In this document: positions 7,880 to 45,512 of the stretch, in pieces | Numbering within the stretch: position 1 is the stretch's first letter | Layout of the letters: each line of letters begins with the position of its first letter | Assembly (NCBI GenBank): GCA_000004695.1 | Contig: CM000151.3 | Span: 5,248,001-5,312,000, forward strand | Reading direction: 5' to 3' | DNA from: Dictyostelium discoideum | Taxonomy: Eukaryota | Length of the DNA stretch: 64,000 nucleotides | Program-made: the position numbers and the translations under genes | The notes under the pieces: model-generated | The model's input: only the letters and a program-made list of their open reading frames with translations | Database searches by the model: none | Told to the model about the DNA's origin: nothing

Positions 7880-8487
7880 CAAAAACAAAAACAAAAACAA
7901 AAACAAAAACAAAAACAAAAAACAAAACAATTTTAAAAATAAAAAAAAGAATGATATAAAATAATTTAAATAAATTAAAAGCTTTTTGTTGAAATTGAGC
8001 ATTAATAGTAATAATTTTAAGTTTAATAAAATTTAAGTTTTTTTTTTGTACATAAATGATATAATGAATATAATAAAATATAAATTTGGATGTGACTATA
8101 ATTAAATTATAGATTATTTTTTTAAAATCATCTAATATGTGGGTTAAATAATAAATTTTTTTTAAAAAGACAATTTATTAAAACTACAAATTTCAACTGA
8201 TTATTAAAAACTATTTTAATTTATCCACATAAAATTAAATAACTACGATTATTTTATTTTGTATGTACTTATTTTATAAATAATTATAAAAAAAATAGTA
8301 ATTTTCAAAAATAATTCCACATCATTTTAAAAGTATAAATTTAATTTTTTTTTTTTTTTTTTTTATAGAAACAAAAATAAAATTAAAATTAAAATTAAAA
8401 ACAAAAAAATAAAACTTAAAAACTATAAAATTAAAAACAATTAAACCTTTCAAAAAATAATTTAATAATTTTATTACTAATTAATTA

Positions 8488-8524
<37 letters not shown>

Positions 8525-8631: not shown

Positions 8632-9052
8632 ATGTCTAAATTATTATTTTCTCTCTTCTTGATTTTTTCTATTATTAGTGTTACTTTTGGTGTAAGGGCT
8701 CTTTAATTTCTTTTAGAGAATATTTTTTTAATTTCTTTGATTTTATTAATTAGTTATTAATTTTTTATTCTTATTATTTTTATTAAAGAATATAGCTGTA
8801 CCTCATATCCCAATGAATATTCCAGATAGAAATTCAAAAAATGAGAATGTTCCAAACAATTTGGTATATAAACAAACATACTATGCTCCACCAAACGTTC
8901 AAACACCATCAAAATTACCAATTTCAAATCAGCCTCCACAAACTCAATCACCACAAACTCAGTCACCACACGTTAACACTAATCCAACTTACCAATCAAC
9001 AACCAAACCACAAAATGATAATAATAATAATAATTACAATAATAACAATAGC

Positions 9053-39815: not shown

Positions 39816-39881
<66 letters not shown>

Positions 39882-40313
39882 TCAAAGAGTGTGTTGATGG
39901 AAGTGATAAATTGGTCTAAGTCGGGGTGGGAGTTTTGATTTTTTGAAAATAAAATTTTCCATTTATTTCTTTAATAAGTCTTTTTATAGGAAAAATAAAA
40001 TATTTTTTTTTTTTTTTTTTTCGTTTCAAATTTTGAATTGTATTATTACTTTTGATAAAAACATCTTTTTTGTCCAAACTTTTTTCTAAATCTTTTTTTA
40101 TTTTATCGTATGGCCGTGATTGATGTTGATGACATATTTAAATTGGTTTTTTTTATTGGAGTTTTATCCACAATTTCGCTTATTTTTTGTAGGCATTTGT
40201 GTTGCTTAATATTTGTGGTGTTGTTTGTAATTTTCATCTTCTTTTCTTTTTATTTATTTTATTTTTCCTTTAAAAAGTTAAAAATCTGGAAATTTTCTGA
40301 TTAAATTGGGTTC

Positions 40314-40350
<37 letters not shown>

Positions 40351-40578
40351 TTATAGAGAGTACTGAGTGAATTATTTTATTTTTAGAGATGTTTAGGAAG
40401 TGCTATTGCGTGAAGAGGTGAGTTCCATTGTCTTCTATATTGTAATAGCTTTAGCGAGATTAATGAGTCTAATTTATTTTGTTCCTCTGGCCGTTGCTTT
40501 GATTTGATTCTTAATGTTTTGTTTATAACCACTTGTATCCTATTTTTTCTTGTAGAAAATCGAAATTTTCCATAAAAA

Positions 40579-40668
40579 GCCCGTGTCGTATAGTGGTTAT
40601 TATATCTGTCTTGTACTTGTTACAAAAGCGATAACAGAGGGTCCTCAGTTCGATTCTGAGCTCGGGCA
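40579..40668 (+). tRNA. Intron-containing tRNA gene; by position the anticodon is UGU (Thr). There is a 17-nt intron after position 37; the mature length is 73 nt
   Basis: Acceptor GCCCGTG/CTCGGGC+A73, D-loop AGTGGTTA, anticodon stem TCTGT/ACAGA with loop CTTGTA (U33, A37), intron CTTGTTACAAAAGCGAT complementary to the anticodon region, T-arm CTCAG-TTCGATT-CTGAG, and a T8 terminator immediately 3'. There are two non-Watson-Crick pairs (6:67 U-U and 13:22 U-U), so the isotype is uncertain. Confidence 0.6.
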
Positions 40669-40669
40669 C

Positions 40670-40677
40670 TTTTTTTT
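40670..40677 (+). terminator. RNA polymerase III oligo(T) terminator of the tRNA at 40579..40668
   Basis: A T8 run begins 2 nt after the discriminator base. Confidence 0.5.
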
Positions 40678-42017
40678 AAAAACCATCTTGATGGTCGTCT
40701 GTTCAATTCTTTTAATGAAACTAAATCAAATATTGAATTATATGAATTGGTGAAAGGACTATATTTGGAAGTACCTATTCCGAATTGGAATATAATAATC
40801 TTTCCATGTTAAATTTTATTAATCAGTATATTCTTTGGATCTTTAAAATTGGATCTTTTGGAAGGGATTTTCAAATTTTTACATTTTTGGAAGTTAGCTT
40901 TAGTGCAACACTTTTTTTTACCTGTGAACTTCTAGGGATTTCCTTGAGTCAGCGGTGTTTTTTAAATTGTATTTTATTTTTTTATTTTTTTTTTTTTTTT
41001 TAAATATAAATAAATTATTTCACAGATTTGGATCTTCAGCAATAATTGTTTATTTCGTTTATTTAGATCAGATTTAGATCTTTATTTTGTAAAGATCAAG
41101 TAAAAAATTAATTTATATCTAAAAAAAAAAATATATGGCCATCAATTTGCGATACCACACTGAATTGTTGAACATTAACACAATAATTTATATAAATGAT
41201 TTATTAGTTAAAAATACTCGCCTAAATTATTGCTCATGTTTTTTCAGAATCTTGTAATAGAAAAATATAATAAAATTAAATAAATATATATAAATTAAAA
41301 TAAAGTAATAATAATAAGTTGATGTTATCGAAAATATCTATAATTATAAATGTTTTTTATTATTGAAAATTTTTAATTTTTATATTTGAGATTTAAAATT
41401 ATGTTTATGAGTTTTTCAATTGATTGACATTAAAAACTCACCACGTGGCTTTTTCCAAAAGTCTAATTATATAAACATAAAATATTTTAGTTTGCGAGCG
41501 AGATTGTATCTAATTTATTATCTTGATAAAACATAATTTTATTGTATCAATTTAATTATTACACAATTATAATACAACACTGAATGGTTCTATAAAGCTA
41601 TAAGCTATGACCTCTAGACATTTTTCATATAAAAACACAATAATATCGATATTACACCAGATATGGATTTGTAATCAACTCTACAGTGATGACAAAATTC
41701 AATACTCAATATTAGACTCGATTTTATTCTCAAAAAATGGTATAAATCTGAATCCTGGGGCCACATAAATAATGTAAAAAATTTTAAACTATCAAATTTT
41801 GAGCAATTGAGTATCAATATATTTAAGCTATAACTCCAAAATAATAATAAATATTCTTAAATCAATTTTTTTATAAAAAAAAAAATCTAAACACTTATTA
41901 TTACTAAAGATCTAAATAAGGATTTGGGTCAAATTATTCAAATTATAATTTGCCACTAAAATTTTCCGAGATGACCAAGATTCGAACCTATGCTGTTTGT
42001 TTTATCCATAAAAAAAG

Positions 42018-42088
42018 TGCCGCGACCTGGAATCGAACCAGGGTCAACAGAGCCACAATCTGATGTACTACCACTATACTATCACGGC
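42018..42088 (-). tRNA. tRNA-His (anticodon GUG)
   Basis: The reverse complement reads GCCGTGATAGTATAGTGGTAGTACATCAGATTGTGGCTCTGTTGACCCTGGTTCGATTCCAGGTCGCGGCA, which is near-identical in architecture to eukaryotic tRNA-His (GCCGTGATCGTATAGTGGTTAGTAC...TTGTGG...GGTTCGAATCC...CACGGCA). An A7 run on the plus strand at 42010..42016 gives the oligo(T) terminator. Confidence 0.8.
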
Positions 42089-42188
42089 GAATTTTACAAA
42101 AAGTGTCAAATTTGTGCTTTTTTTGTTATTACCAATTTTTTTACATAGTTTGGTCAATAATCGGGCAGAAACACAAAAATTGTATTAA

Positions 42189-42251
42189 CTAAACCAATCG
42201 AACCAGGGTTATCAGAGCCATAATCTGATGTACTATCACCATACTCACGGC
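42189..42251 (-). pseudogene. Degenerate tRNA-His copy (anticodon mutated to AUG, broken acceptor stem)
   Basis: The reverse complement reads GCCGTGAGTATGGTGATAGTACATCAGATTATGGCTCTGATAACCCTGGTTCGATTGGTTTAG, which shares the D and T arms and flanking sequence with the intact tRNA-His 170 bp upstream. The 3' acceptor strand cannot pair and there is no adjacent terminator. Confidence 0.5.
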
Positions 42252-42526
42252 GAATTTGATGTTTCTATGCCAATAATATATGAATGGTAAAAAATGAAGC
42301 TTTATCAATATTGTTTGTTTAATTAAAGAAAATATAACTAAATTTATTATCACTGTCAAACTGTGTGGGATAGTTTGTTTGATATTAAAAAACAAAAACA
42401 TCCGAGTATTTTATTTAAAAGTCCATAATTTATGATGCAATCTCATATTTATCAAAAAAATTTCACATTTAACTTTAATATCAAAATAATTTAAAAAAAC
42501 AAAAAAAAAAAATATAAATAGTTTTA

Positions 42527-43786
42527 TTAATTTCTTTGTATTCCATTTATTTTAAAGGAGGTAATACTCTTTTTTGTTTGTATTATTTTTTCTATTTCTT
42601 TGGTTAGTTTTTCATCTTCATCTTTAATACCTATTGTTAAACTATTGACCTTTTTGGGAAGAAATGAAAGGGATTCAATGTTTGTAAAGTTTGAACCAAG
42701 AGTTAGTGATGTTACAAATGGTGGAATACTGTTTGCTTTTAAATTTATATTATAATTGTGTAATTGTAAATCTGTTACAGAATAAGGTAGAAATCTTTTA
42801 TTAACAGGTTGTGTAAAATTAAAACCACATCTAAGTACTAATATTGATTCGTTTGGAAGATTAGTGCCATTTTCTTCAATGTTAAATTCATTGCCTAAAT
42901 CTAAATATTTAACAGATTCTGGTATTGAATCAAATTCAAGGTTTTGATTTAATTTATTAAATAAAAGATATTGAACAGATTGTGGTATTGCTCCTGGTAT
43001 TATCATTTTGTCATAAAAAGATAATGAAAGGTAGTTAATATCATTACCAATTGATTCTAATAAATCTGGTTCATTAGTTTCTAATTCTAATCTCTTTATA
43101 TTTGGTGATAAATACTTTTCAAATACTGAATCGCCTTCAATTTGAGTCTAAATATTAAATTTGTAAAAAAAAAAATTAGAATTTGGTTTCTTTCTTAGCA
43201 ATTTGTTTTTAACACTTACATTAGATAAAGATGTAATTAAACTTTCAATACAATGTCTAGCGTTTGTATCATACTGTAAACAATTTTGAATTATATTTTT
43301 AAATGAATTGGATAAGTGTTTTGGTATAGGAGGAATACCTTTATCATCTCTTTTAGACTTGGACAAATCCAAACCAGCCATTTCAATCATTGTACAACCA
43401 ATACAAAAAATATCAGATTTACTACCTGCTTTACCATTTTGTAATTTAACTTCTGGTGCCATATGTGAATCTGTACCTACAAATGAAAAATACTTTGAAC
43501 TCTTTTCAATTTGTTTTGATAATCCAAAATCTATGAATTTTACAATGATTTCATTATTTTTATCTTGAACCAAAAAGATGTGATCACCTTTAATATCACG
43601 ATGAATAACACCTGATTCGTGAATTTTCCTAAGTGCTTTGACGATTTTAATCATTAAAGATTTTATTTCTTCCTCTTCAAATCTTTTATTTGGTTTTTGT
43701 TTTATTAAGTCTGAAATGGATGTGGCATCTTCAATGTATTCTGTATAAATGTATTCCCCAATCTTCCTGAAAATGCTCATTATCAT
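42527..43786 (-). CDS. FNIP-repeat protein kinase (downstream paralogue): kinase C-lobe exon 43220..43786 and FNIP-repeat exon 42527..43147
   Basis: HRDIKGDHIFL, DFGLSK and GTDSHMAPE place this in kinase subdomains VIb-VIII. A GTAAGT donor and a tatttAG acceptor give a 72-nt intron in phase 0. C-terminal FNIP repeats (CGFNFTQPV, LGSNFTNIESL). The first ATG lies after the N-lobe, so the 5' end is unresolved (see findings). Confidence 0.55.
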
Positions 43787-45512
43787 TTAACATATTATCT
43801 GTTGATTGATTAAATGTGTTTAAAGGTGGTGATTTTTTAAAATTAACTATTTTACCATTGATGTTTATTGATGTGATATGCGATGGTATATATTTTTTTA
43901 ATTCCTCTATTTTGATATCGTTTTTGAAACCAAATTTCAAATTGATTATTGATGAAGGAAGATTTGATAATGATTCAAAGTGAGCGAAATTTGAACCAAG
44001 GGTTAGCATTATTATTGATCGAGGGATACTATTAGGTAGTATTTTTAAATTGTAATTGTATAATTGTAGATCTGTAACTGATGAAGGGATGTATCTTTGA
44101 TTAATGGTAAATGTAAATCCAGTTCTTAGTGTTAGTATCGAATCTTCAGGAATTAAAATTCCATACTTTTCAATATCAAATCCATCACCAAAGTCTAAAA
44201 ATTCTGGAAGAGTTAAGTTTATTTCGTTTTGAGAAAATTGATTTAATTTATTAAATACAAGATGTTTAACAGATTGAGGAATTGATCGTTTTTTAAGAGG
44301 ATGGTTGAATGATGGTAGCTTTAAATACTTAATACTGTCTGGTAATATACCTGGATCTAAAGGATAGTTGTATGATTGTAATATTAAGTACTCTACACCA
44401 TTAAATATTACCTTACTTTCAAGTGGTTGATTGTAGGTTGGTAATTCTAAATATTTTATACCATGAAAAGTTGGTGGAACAATTACCTGATTGAAAAGTG
44501 GTAATGTGGTACATTCATTTGGAAGGTAAATTGGTTCTATTGTTTCCACTACGCTGTTTTTAATTACATAGTTGTACAATTCATTGGAATTGAATCTAGC
44601 ATTTGGTTTGATTTGTAAACAATGTTGGATAATGTTTTTAAAATGATTTGATAAATGATCAGGGATTACAGGAATACCATTAATATCTAGCAATTTTAGG
44701 TCACCACCTACAATTTCAATTAATGATGAATCATTAATTTCAAAATGTAATTCTGAATCAAATATGGAATGGTCAAAACCAATTATTTTAATAAAATCTG
44801 TAGGTAACATTTTATCATTTTCATCATAAAGTATAAGAATATTTTGGCATTTAATATCAAAATGAATTATACCCATATCATGAATACTCTTTATTGATTT
44901 TATTATTTCAGTAGCTACAATAAATTGTTCTTTTTTATTTAACTTTCCAAATAATCTAGATAATGGAATTGCTTTATCAATATATTCTAAATAAACGTTA
45001 AAAGTATTATTTCCATCTTTACCATACCCATACAACTTTGGAGAGCATTTGCAAATATTTAAAATATCTATAATCCCGACCTATTAACAATGGGTTAATT
45101 AAATTTATAATGGAGGAAATTTAAAGAGATTTTAAATAAGTATGCTTACATTTTTATGTTTTTTGGTATAATAAACTTTATTTTCTGAAATATTTTTTTG
45201 AGGTTTATATTCTTCATGAATATATTGAATAATTTCCCAGTTTTGTTCGACATGTATTGGGTTATCTGATAATTTGAGATCTCTAACCCTAGTGGTTAAT
45301 GTTTCAGATGTGGGCAATTGTTTATTGCATGGTAAATGGAGACATTCCACACTATTTGGTAATGTTCCTGGTGTGAGTGCTTGATTATAGGATGATAAAT
45401 CGAGACATTCCACACCATTTGGTAGTACTCCTGGTGTGAGTGCTTGATTATAGGATGATAAATCGAGATATTTTACAAAAGGTGAGACTTCGGCGGTAAA
45501 AACAAATTCTTT
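43731..45512 (-). CDS. FNIP-repeat (pseudo)kinase paralogue (upstream copy): exon 43731..45080 and an upstream FNIP-repeat exon 45149..<=45512 with no identifiable in-frame ATG
   Basis: The kinase-like core is ILNICKCSPKLYGYGKDG...HFDIKCQNILI...IGFDHS. The HRD and DFG motifs are degenerate, so it is probably a pseudokinase. It is followed by about eight FNIP repeats. A GTAAGC donor and a ttaatAG acceptor (phase 0) join an upstream exon that contains a 66-bp tandem FNIP-coding repeat. Confidence 0.5.
45345..45480. repeat. 66-bp coding tandem repeat (2.1 copies), each encoding one 22-aa FNIP-type repeat (ECLDLSSYNQALTPGxLPNxV)
   Basis: Near-identical 66-nt units on the plus strand (…gacattccacac[c/t]atttggta[g/a]t[a/g][c/t]tcctggtgtgagtgcttgattataggatgataaatcgag…). 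Confidence 0.8.

What the first reader, a model, noticed from the sequence alone, without database searches (positions are those of the whole stretch)
40330..42260. tRNA hotspot with an intact tRNA-His, a decayed tRNA-His copy, a tRNA 3'-half fragment and ~1.5 kb of unusually complex non-AT DNA (candidate retroelement remnants)
Three or four tRNA-related sequences lie within 1.7 kb. The intact tRNA-His (42018..42088, minus) and the degenerate copy (42189..42251, minus) share flanking sequence (...gtactaccactatactatcacggcgaatttt... against ...gtactatcaccatactcacggcgaatttg...), which indicates a local segmental duplication followed by decay. A further tRNA-like 3' half (GGTTCGAATCTTGGTCATCTCGGA, minus strand, about 41961..41985) lies just beside them. 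The surrounding 40330..40560 and 40700..41900 are much less AT-biased than normal intergenic DNA, yet contain no long ORF. Dictyostelium tRNA genes are the integration targets of TRE5 (about 50 bp upstream) and TRE3 (about 100 bp downstream) non-LTR retrotransposons, so these blocks may be TRE fragments or solo modules.
Basis: partly seen in the sequence, partly recalled or inferred. Interest (0 to 1): 0.5.

Follow-up and report, generated by a model that had tools for sequence, protein, structure and literature searches.

The report
Dictyostelium tRNA pair with decayed insertions
This stretch holds two working tRNA genes that point towards each other, each with the extra downstream promoter box typical of Dictyostelium, plus one broken copy of the histidine tRNA gene and non-coding DNA that looks like old, scrambled insertions of tRNA-targeting mobile elements; this is an ordinary arrangement for this organism.

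Summary
tRNA-His(GUG) lies at 42018-42088 (-). A decayed partial copy lies at 42196-42257 (-). The hotspot has higher G+C than other non-ORF DNA in the window (0.25 against 0.17) and no coding capacity.

Two corrections:
- The "tRNA 3' half" is the external B box (exB) of tRNA-His. It sits 30 nt past the gene and is conserved in three relatives.

Orthologous loci from three D. discoideum-group genomes show the tRNA pair is conserved while its flanks turn over.
- About 650 bp (39888-40538) is inserted at -41 of tRNA-Thr in the window only. Its homologue sits at -37 of tRNA-His in two relatives, in the same orientation relative to the gene. That geometry is TRE5-like.
- A 300-bp block (41580-41880) has two copies in the closest relative, both downstream of and co-oriented with a tRNA gene. 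That geometry is TRE3-like.
- No RT or endonuclease remnant, no clean target-site duplication and no TRE5-A-type 3' hairpin was found.
- No Dictyostelium repeat library was available, so the family cannot be named.

Verdict: an ordinary, known kind of locus. The TRE-remnant reading is supported only by geometry.

The parts
40579..40669 (+). tRNA-Thr(UGU) gene with a 17-nt intron (40616-40632). The internal B box GTTCGATTC is at 40648-40656 and the T8 terminator at 40671-40678.
   Evidence: aragorn -i. Rfam RF00005 47.7 bits, E 2e-8. The exons are identical in four genomes and all substitutions fall in the intron.
40694..40709 (+). External B box of tRNA-Thr (GTCgtctGTTCAATTC). The core is at 40701-40709, 31-32 nt after the gene end.
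   Evidence: GTTCRANYC match. L002 has GGTCGTAGGTTCGACTC and L004 has GGTTCGAC at the same place; L003 has none.
42018..42088 (-). tRNA-His(GUG) gene. The internal B box is at 42030-42038 and the T7 terminator follows directly.
   Evidence: 65 bits. The 71 nt are identical in L002, L003 and L004.
41965..41988 (-). The core GTTCGAATC is at 41979-41987, 30 nt after the gene end.
   Evidence: GGTTCGAxTCC is kept at the same distance in L002 (about 8044), L003 (about 7586) and L004 (about 5096) while the flanks diverge. The literature describes this feature (PMC3159450; PMC5911963).
42196..42257 (-). tRNA-His pseudogene fragment. It covers leader -6/-7 to position 58, with a 2-nt deletion in the D arm, anticodon GTG changed to ATG, the B box broken at its last base, and the 3' 13 nt missing.
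   Evidence: It gets no tRNA call and has no counterpart in L002, L003 or L004.
42125..42273 (-). Window-specific 149-bp segment starting at -37 of tRNA-His. It consists of a 70-bp stretch of unknown origin, the pseudo-His fragment and 16 bp. It occupies exactly the interval that holds the 340-bp E' element in L002.
   Evidence: The junctions CATATATTAT| and |AAAAAAAGCACAAA are shared with L002. The 70 bp has no source in the window or in any locus.
39888..40538 (-). Block E: a non-coding insertion of about 650 bp starting at -41 of tRNA-Thr. It is A-rich on the minus strand, with internal A runs (40348-40319, 40021-40003), and abuts an A63 run. It is a candidate TRE5-type retroelement remnant.
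   Evidence: Homology with L002 and L003 upstream of tRNA-Thr stops at 40539 and resumes at about 39880/39834. Window 40166-40496 is 79% identical to L002 7554-7894, at -37 of tRNA-His. Window 40055-40186 is 73% identical to L003 7272-7400, upstream of tRNA-His. Both have the same orientation relative to the gene. There is no ORF or Pfam hit.
39817..39879 (-). A63 run (T63 on the plus strand) at the distal end of block E. It could be a poly(A) tail or an expanded pre-existing A run.
   Evidence: Sequence. L002 has A21 at the orthologous place without the insertion.
40780..41020 (.). Block D: spacer DNA shared with L002 only (81% identical). Its origin is unknown.
   Evidence: It is absent from L003 and L004.
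41090..41150 (+). Block C. It is contiguous with block B in L002 (8194-8251) and is separated from B in the window by block X.
41151..41579 (.). Block X: a window-specific 430-bp AT-rich insertion inside the C-B unit. It is flanked by the imperfect direct repeat ATACCACACTGAATTGTT / ATACAACACTGAATGGTT.
   Evidence: (D19). It is unexplained.
41580..41885 (+). Block B: a non-coding unit of about 300 bp ending in A11. It is a candidate 3'-terminal fragment of a TRE3-type element. In the window the whole C-X-B unit is inverted relative to L002.
   Evidence: It is 75% identical (84% in the core) to L002 8252-8520 and 67% identical to a second, older L002 copy at 8681-8960. In L002 both copies lie downstream of and co-oriented with a tRNA gene.

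Best explanation
The locus is a convergent pair of RNA polymerase III genes: tRNA-Thr(UGU), which contains an intron, and tRNA-His(GUG). Each has internal A and B boxes, an oligo-T terminator and an external B box about 30 nt behind the terminator. From the literature, that box is an extra TFIIIC site. The pair is conserved in the D. discoideum/D. citrinum group and is the only part of the region under visible constraint.

The "complex" DNA around the pair is most likely the decayed, non-coding residue of insertions drawn to these genes.
- Upstream of tRNA-Thr, an A-rich block of about 650 bp sits at -41 with its presumed 5' end facing the gene, which is TRE5-type geometry. A sister copy sits at -37 of tRNA-His in relatives.
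- Between the genes, a block of about 300 bp with an A-rich 3' end has paralogues in TRE3-type geometry in the closest relative.
- Later events scrambled the region: an in-place inversion, a 430-bp insertion, deletions, and replacement of the element upstream of tRNA-His by 149 bp that includes a 64-nt copy of the neighbouring tRNA-His gene.

Shown here: the genes, the exB boxes, the insertion and deletion boundaries, the paralogy and the lack of coding capacity. Inferred: that the blocks are retroelement remnants, their sense strand, and that TFIIIB/TFIIIC-bound tRNA genes recruited them as described for TRE5-A.
For: - tRNA calls come.
- The tRNA-Thr exons are invariant with changes only in the intron, and tRNA-His is identical in four genomes.
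- GTTCRANYC occurs 7 times in 64 kb. Four of these are the internal and external boxes of the two genes, on the gene strand, 51-53 nt apart. The exB is conserved across relatives.
- The window-specific insertion has its boundary at -41 of tRNA-Thr, shared against both L002 and L003.
- The same sequence sits upstream of tRNA-His in L002 (79%) and L003 (73%), in the same orientation relative to the gene.
- The B family has three copies. The L002 copy next to tRNA-Thr is equally distant (67-68%) from the other two, so it predates the species split. Both L002 copies are co-oriented with and downstream of a tRNA gene, 75 bp and 180 bp from it.
- All aligned non-coding blocks are 67-85% identical, like plain intergenic DNA (77-83%). 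Exons are 92-95% identical and the tRNAs 100%.
- The spacers of L003 and L004 are unrelated.
- Literature: TRE5 inserts 40-54 bp upstream in the opposite orientation with its 5' end facing the tRNA. TRE3 inserts 40-150 bp downstream in the same orientation and also behind the exB. 61% of D. discoideum tRNA genes carry a TRE. New TRE5-A copies insert between the target and an older copy.
Against: - No sequence comparison with any TRE, DGLT-A, Skipper or DDT reference was possible.
- No RT, endonuclease or ORF1 remnant was found.
- No 10-16-bp target-site duplication is visible at block E. Its distal A run already exists, shorter, in the empty L002 site, so a poly(A) tail is not proven.
- The 3' ends of E and of its sub-blocks do not fold, whereas TRE5-A and TRE5-C have a 3' hairpin (PMC3159450).
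- The L002 copy of E lacks both ends of the window copy, which simple target-primed reverse transcription does not produce.
- In the window itself, block B is in the wrong orientation for TRE3 relative to tRNA-His.
- No further copies were found in about 125 kb of related loci.
Confidence: 0.6

Rival explanations
1. No mobile element is involved. The blocks are ordinary lineage-specific intergenic DNA that was shuffled locally by inversions, template-switching repair and small duplications at fragile, heavily transcribed Pol III genes. In this reading block E was relocated from the tRNA-His side to the tRNA-Thr side, and the pseudo-His fragment arose in the same kind of event.
For: - The C-B unit is inverted in place between the same neighbours in the window and in L002.
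- The pseudo-His fragment is a templated local copy placed exactly where L002 has E'.
- Block E has no target-site duplication, no provable tail of its own and no coding remnant.
- No extra copies were found in the loci available.
Against: - Random relocation does not predict that block E would land at -41 of another tRNA gene in the same relative orientation as at -37 of tRNA-His.
- It also does not predict that the two old B copies in L002 would both be downstream of and co-oriented with different tRNA genes.
- Moving E by inversions alone needs at least two events that reuse the same breakpoints.
Confidence: 0.25
2. The blocks are remains of a different tRNA-associated element class, such as solo LTRs of DGLT-A or Skipper-2, or a DNA transposon such as DDT, rather than TRE non-LTR elements.
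For: - DGLT-A and Skipper-2 also cluster at Dictyostelium tRNA genes (PMC5006619).
- The lack of coding sequence and of a clear poly(A) tail would suit solo LTRs.
Against: - The published windows are 13-33 bp upstream for DGLT-A and 8-23 bp downstream for Skipper-2 in D. discoideum. The observed positions are -41 and -37 upstream, and +75 or more downstream.
- The E termini are not TG...CA and are not inverted repeats.
- The strand-asymmetric A richness and A runs suit a retro-copied transcript.
Confidence: 0.08
3. The complex DNA encodes an unannotated non-coding RNA or a promoter or regulatory module.
For: - G+C is higher than in typical intergenic DNA.
- The core of block B is 84% identical to L002 over 198 nt.
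Against: - No Rfam match reaches E<0.1 apart from the tRNAs.
- Conservation is no higher than in neighbouring AT-rich intergenic DNA.
- The blocks are inverted, interrupted or missing in the closest relative and absent from L003 and L004.
- A C-box/D-box-like pair in block B is not kept in L002 or in the second L002 copy.
Confidence: 0.05

Closest known systems
External B box (exB) of Dictyostelium discoideum tRNA genes
   Same: It has the motif GTTCRAnYC on the gene strand, a few tens of nt behind the terminator, and it is present behind both genes. The literature reports it about 41 bp downstream of 66% of tRNA genes, or about 80% by another count (PMC3159450, PMC5911963).
   Different: The spacing here is 30-32 nt from the gene end to the motif core. 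The tRNA-Thr box in the window is a weaker version (TGTTCAATTC) than in L002 (GGTTCGACTC). TFIIIC binding was not tested.
TRE5 non-LTR retrotransposons (TRE5-A, -B, -C)
   Same: [quoted passage not shown] Its A-rich strand is opposite to the tRNA, so the presumed 5' end faces the gene. A sister copy lies at -37 of another tRNA gene. The three sub-blocks of 189, 296 and 124 nt resemble the A (200), B (290) and C (134-137) module lengths of TRE5-A; this is a lead only.
   Different: There is no ORF1 or ORF2 remnant, no 10-16-bp target-site duplication, no C-module-like 3' hairpin and no homology test. A 44-aa ORF in the B-like part has no homologue in the protein database.
TRE3 non-LTR retrotransposons (TRE3-A to -D)
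   Same: In L002 the two B-family copies lie 75 bp and 180 bp downstream of tRNA-Thr and tRNA-His. They are co-oriented with the gene and have their A-rich 3' end distal. This fits 5'-truncated copies inserted behind the gene or its exB.
   Different: In the window the single remaining copy is inverted and interrupted by 430 bp. There is no coding remnant and no homology test.
tRNA pseudogene made by local partial duplication
   Same: The fragment is a 64-nt copy of the neighbouring gene including its own leader. It is 11% diverged while the parent gene is unchanged.
   Different: It is not a tandem duplication, because only 6-7 nt of flank are shared. It sits in the slot where relatives carry block E', which suggests filler DNA copied during repair.

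Membership tests
tRNA (Rfam RF00005) | Cloverleaf covariance-model score above the gathering threshold (29 bits) | tested here: met
   tRNA-His scores 65 bits and tRNA-Thr scores 47.7 bits with its intron. The pseudo-His fragment at 42196-42257 gives no hit at E<=10, so it is not a member.
Intron-containing eukaryotic tRNA | Intron directly 3' of anticodon-loop position 37, with exons conserved and intron free to vary | tested here: met
   aragorn reports i(38,17). All differences among four genomes fall at intron positions 38-46.
Dictyostelium external B box | [quoted passage not shown] | tested here: met
   The motif lies at 41979-41987 (-) and 40701-40709 (+), 30 and 31-32 nt past the gene ends. 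About 4.5 such motifs are expected per 64 kb on both strands.
Dictyostelium external B box | Evolutionary retention at the same position | tested here: met
   The tRNA-His exB is present in L002, L003 and L004. The tRNA-Thr exB is present in L002 and L004 but not in L003.
Dictyostelium external B box | Binds TFIIIC | not testable with these tools
   This needs ChIP or a gel-shift assay.
TRE5 retrotransposon | [quoted passage not shown] | tested here: met
   Block E begins at -41 of tRNA-Thr. The L002 copy begins at -37 of tRNA-His.
TRE5 retrotransposon | Opposite transcriptional orientation, with the 5' end facing the tRNA gene | tested here: inconclusive
   The sense strand is inferred only from A richness and A runs on the minus strand. 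With that assumption the criterion is met for both copies.
TRE5 retrotransposon | ORF1 and ORF2 (APE, RT, zinc finger), or recognisable remnants | tested here: not met
   There are stops in all frames, no Pfam hit and no homologue of the 44-aa ORF.
TRE5 retrotransposon | Target-site duplication of 10-16 bp and an oligo(A) tail | tested here: inconclusive
   No duplication was seen. An A63 run abuts the element, but A21 is already present at the empty L002 site.
TRE5-A / TRE5-C | Stable hairpin in the 3'-terminal ~54 nt (C-module; -20 and -12.5 kcal/mol reported) | tested here: not met
   The 3' ends of E and of its sub-blocks fold at -0.4, 0 and -2.1 kcal/mol, no better than shuffles. The copy may be decayed.
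TRE5 / TRE3 retrotransposons | Nucleotide homology to a reference element | not testable with these tools
   No Dictyostelium repeat library or genome could be searched. The supplement of PMC5006619 holds no TRE sequence, and the older papers are not held.
TRE3 retrotransposon | 40-150 bp downstream of a tRNA gene (or behind its exB), in the same orientation | tested here: inconclusive
   The criterion is met for the L002 copy next to tRNA-Thr (75 bp). It is nearly met for the L002 copy next to tRNA-His (180 bp from the gene, 140 bp from the exB). It is not met for the window copy, which is inverted.
DGLT-A / Skipper-2 LTR elements | 13-33 bp upstream (DGLT-A) or 8-23 bp downstream (Skipper-2) of the tRNA gene | tested here: not met
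   The observed distances are -41 and -37 upstream, and +75 or more downstream.

The most novel reading that the evidence does not exclude
Blocks E and B could be members of undescribed, wholly non-coding (SINE-like) retroelement families of the D. discoideum species complex. In this reading they are mobilised in trans by the TRE5 and TRE3 machinery and inherit its tRNA-gene targeting, rather than being decayed fragments of the catalogued TRE families.
Probability: 0.1. Interest if true: 0.4.

Novelty: already known. Interest (0 to 1): 0.15.

Why it matters
This matters little beyond annotation. It adds an intron-containing tRNA-Thr and two external B boxes to the feature list. It also corrects a "tRNA fragment" to a promoter element.

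The locus is a compact illustration of a known pattern. Dictyostelium tRNA genes stay fixed while their flanks are repeatedly hit, stacked, inverted and eroded, and synteny of neighbouring protein genes also breaks there. It would become more interesting only if blocks E and B proved to be a new non-autonomous tRNA-targeted element family.

Tried and rejected
Attempts to obtain a TRE reference:
Two fetched orthologues. One queried the 44-aa ORF of block E and found nothing.
- The supplement of PMC5006619 holds the RT alignment only as an image.
- TRE papers gave no native TRE primer or module sequence.
- Siol 2006, Gloeckner 2001 and Marschalek 1992 are not held.
- Strings from E and B occur in no paper.

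Other searches that found nothing:
- Two metagenome scans for conserved E and B motifs gave 0 hits.
- Exact-protein look-ups of window ORFs, including E and B ORFs, found nothing on record.
- Extra loci gave no tRNA genes and no E or B copies: L001 (rearranged paralogous locus), L005 (paralogue in another D. discoideum assembly) and L006 (D. purpureum).
- Pfam on ten hotspot ORFs gave nothing.
- The 70-bp filler next to the pseudo-His fragment has no source.

Ideas rejected:
- A C/D snoRNA in block B was rejected because the boxes are not conserved.
- A DUSE-type ncRNA promoter in block E was rejected because the motif is imperfect and absent in L002.
- A simple tandem duplication as the origin of the pseudo-His fragment was rejected because only 6-7 nt of flank are shared.
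- A single inversion to move E was rejected because the gene order His...Thr is unchanged.
Full report
**What is there.** The window is from the Dictyostelium discoideum species complex.
- A 1279-aa ORF next to the region is 95% identical to a protein of a "D. discoideum" assembly, 89% to D. cf. discoideum, 82% to D. citrinum and 56% to D. purpureum.
- ARAGORN and Rfam confirm tRNA-His(GUG) at 42018-42088 on the minus strand (65 bits).
- With introns allowed, ARAGORN also finds tRNA-Thr(UGU) at 40579-40669 on the plus strand, with a 17-nt intron after position 37. A sensitive Rfam scan scores it 47.7 bits, E 2e-8.
- The two genes converge and lie 1.35 kb apart.

**The decayed tRNA-His.** Window 42196-42257 matches the gene plus 6-7 nt of its 5' leader at 89% over 64 nt.
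- It has a 2-nt deletion in the D arm and the anticodon GTG changed to ATG.
- Its B box is broken at the last base (GTTCGATTG).
- It lacks the 3' 13 nt.
- It is not called as a tRNA.

**The "3' half".** GGTTCGAATCTTGGTCATCTCGGA lies at 41965-41988 (-), 30 nt behind tRNA-His. It contains GTTCGAATC, a match to the B-box consensus GTTCRAnYC.
- tRNA-Thr has the equivalent GTCgtctGTTCAATTC 31-32 nt behind its end.
- Of seven consensus matches in 64 kb (4.5 expected), four are the internal and downstream boxes of these two genes.
- The literature describes tRNA-gene-external B boxes behind 66% (or about 80%) of D. discoideum tRNA genes, and says TRE3 can use them (PMC3159450; PMC5911963).
- The tRNA-His box is kept at the same spot in three relatives while the surrounding sequence changes.
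- I therefore read it as a promoter element, not a tRNA relic.

**Composition and coding.**
- The hotspot has G+C 0.248, against 0.166 for other non-ORF windows (p=4e-7).
- All six frames are full of stops.
- No ORF exceeds 72 aa, and none hits Pfam.
- Nothing from 39880-42520 recurs elsewhere in the window except the His/pseudo-His pair and low-complexity runs.

**Comparative evidence.** Through orthologues of the flanking 1750-aa gene I fetched the syntenic loci of three genomes: L002 (the closest), L003 and L004.
- All three carry the same convergent His/Thr pair.
- tRNA-His is identical in all four genomes. The tRNA-Thr exons are identical and only the intron varies.
- D. purpureum has no tRNA at the orthologous gene.
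- The non-coding blocks that align with L002 are 67-85% identical. That is the same as plain AT-rich intergenic DNA (77-83%) and well below exons (92-95%).
- The L003 and L004 spacers are unrelated to the window's. So the complex DNA shows no special constraint.

**Upstream of tRNA-Thr.**
- Homology to both L002 and L003 runs from the gene to -40 and stops at window 40539.
- It resumes at the long A/T run near 39880.
- The window therefore has a lineage-specific insertion of about 650 bp (block E, 39888-40538) starting at -41.
- On the minus strand E is A-rich. It has internal A30 and A19 runs and abuts an A63 run.
- Window 40166-40496 is 79% identical to L002 7554-7894, which starts at -37 of tRNA-His. 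Window 40055-40186 is 73% identical to L003 7272-7400, again upstream of tRNA-His. In each case the orientation relative to the tRNA gene is the same.
- Published TRE5 behaviour is integration 40-54 bp upstream, in the opposite orientation, with the 5' end facing the gene. New copies insert between the gene and older ones.
- So the geometry fits.
- The caveats are several. There is no target-site duplication. The distal A run exists already (A21) at the empty L002 site. No 3' hairpin like the TRE5-A or TRE5-C C-module is present. There is no coding remnant. The L002 copy lacks both ends of the window copy.

**Upstream of tRNA-His.** The window (149 bp, 42125-42273, containing the pseudo-His fragment) and L002 (340 bp, E') differ between exactly the same two junctions.
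- An E-like sequence is also upstream of tRNA-His in L003, so the element was probably ancestral there.
- In the window lineage it was replaced by filler DNA, part of which was copied from the adjacent gene.
- The pseudo-His leader matches the window and L002 leader, not those of L003 or L004.
- The remaining 70 bp has no detectable source.

**Between the genes.**
- In L002, blocks C and B are contiguous (8194-8520) and end in an A-rich run.
- In the window the same unit is inverted in place and is split by a 430-bp insertion (X, 41151-41579). X is flanked by an imperfect 18-nt direct repeat.
- L002 has a second B copy (8681-8960) beginning 75 bp behind tRNA-Thr. It is 67-68% identical to both other copies, so it predates the split.
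- Both L002 copies are co-oriented with the tRNA gene they follow. This is the published TRE3 arrangement of 40-150 bp downstream in the same orientation.

**Verdict.**
- The tRNA genes and the exB boxes are certain.
- The pseudo-His fragment as a local copy is well supported.
- The retroelement-remnant reading rests on position, orientation and paralogy, not on homology. I give it about 0.6. I give about 0.25 to purely local rearrangement of non-mobile DNA.
- Either way this is a known, common situation: 61% of D. discoideum tRNA genes carry a TRE.

Noticed in passing
window 40579-40669 (+): There is an intact intron-containing tRNA-Thr(UGU) that default bacterial-mode ARAGORN and Rfam's fast filters miss. 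Its exons are invariant in four genomes and only the 17-nt intron varies.
   Followed up: yes
window 42314-45480; L001 9016-11396; L003 5436-5843; L004 3854-4267: Gene content next to the tRNA hotspot differs between lineages. The window and L002 carry tandem FNIP-repeat kinase genes between the DOCK gene and tRNA-His. L003 and L004 carry a 135-aa secreted-protein gene there instead. In another D. cf. discoideum assembly (L001) the kinase block lies elsewhere, and similarity to the window ends at about 42314, just beside the hotspot.
   Followed up: partly
window 41151-41579: A 430-bp AT-rich insertion is absent from L002. It is flanked by ATACCACACTGAATTGTT and ATACAACACTGAATGGTT. It has no tail, no terminal inverted repeats and no homologue, and its origin is unknown.
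   Followed up: partly
window 39817-39879: An uninterrupted run of 63 T (A63 on the minus strand) lies where L002 has 21. It could be either a retroelement tail or a simple repeat expansion.
   Followed up: partly
L004 7600-7720 (minus strand), D. citrinum: A G+C-rich tRNA-like sequence lies 130-240 bp downstream of tRNA-Thr. It reads GGGGGCATGGTGGAGTGGATACCGCAC...GACCTTGGTTCGAGTCTTGGTCTCACCA and ends in CCA. Neither ARAGORN nor Rfam calls it. Its B-box part resembles the tRNA-His exB of the window. It might be a class II tRNA pseudogene, a retro-copied tRNA or part of an element.
   Followed up: partly
window 43148-45035 (-); L002 3586-7325: Two adjacent kinase-plus-FNIP-repeat ORF sets appear to be tandem paralogues. 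The L002 annotation merges them into one 1101-aa gene. The closest database protein to the second kinase ORF covers only 42% of it at 87% identity, so the gene models here look unreliable, or one copy is a pseudogene.
   Followed up: no
window 41070-41082 and 41906-41918: There is a short inverted repeat (ATTTAGATCTTTA / TAAAGATCTAAAT) near the two ends of the segment that is inverted relative to L002. It may mark the inversion breakpoints.
   Followed up: no
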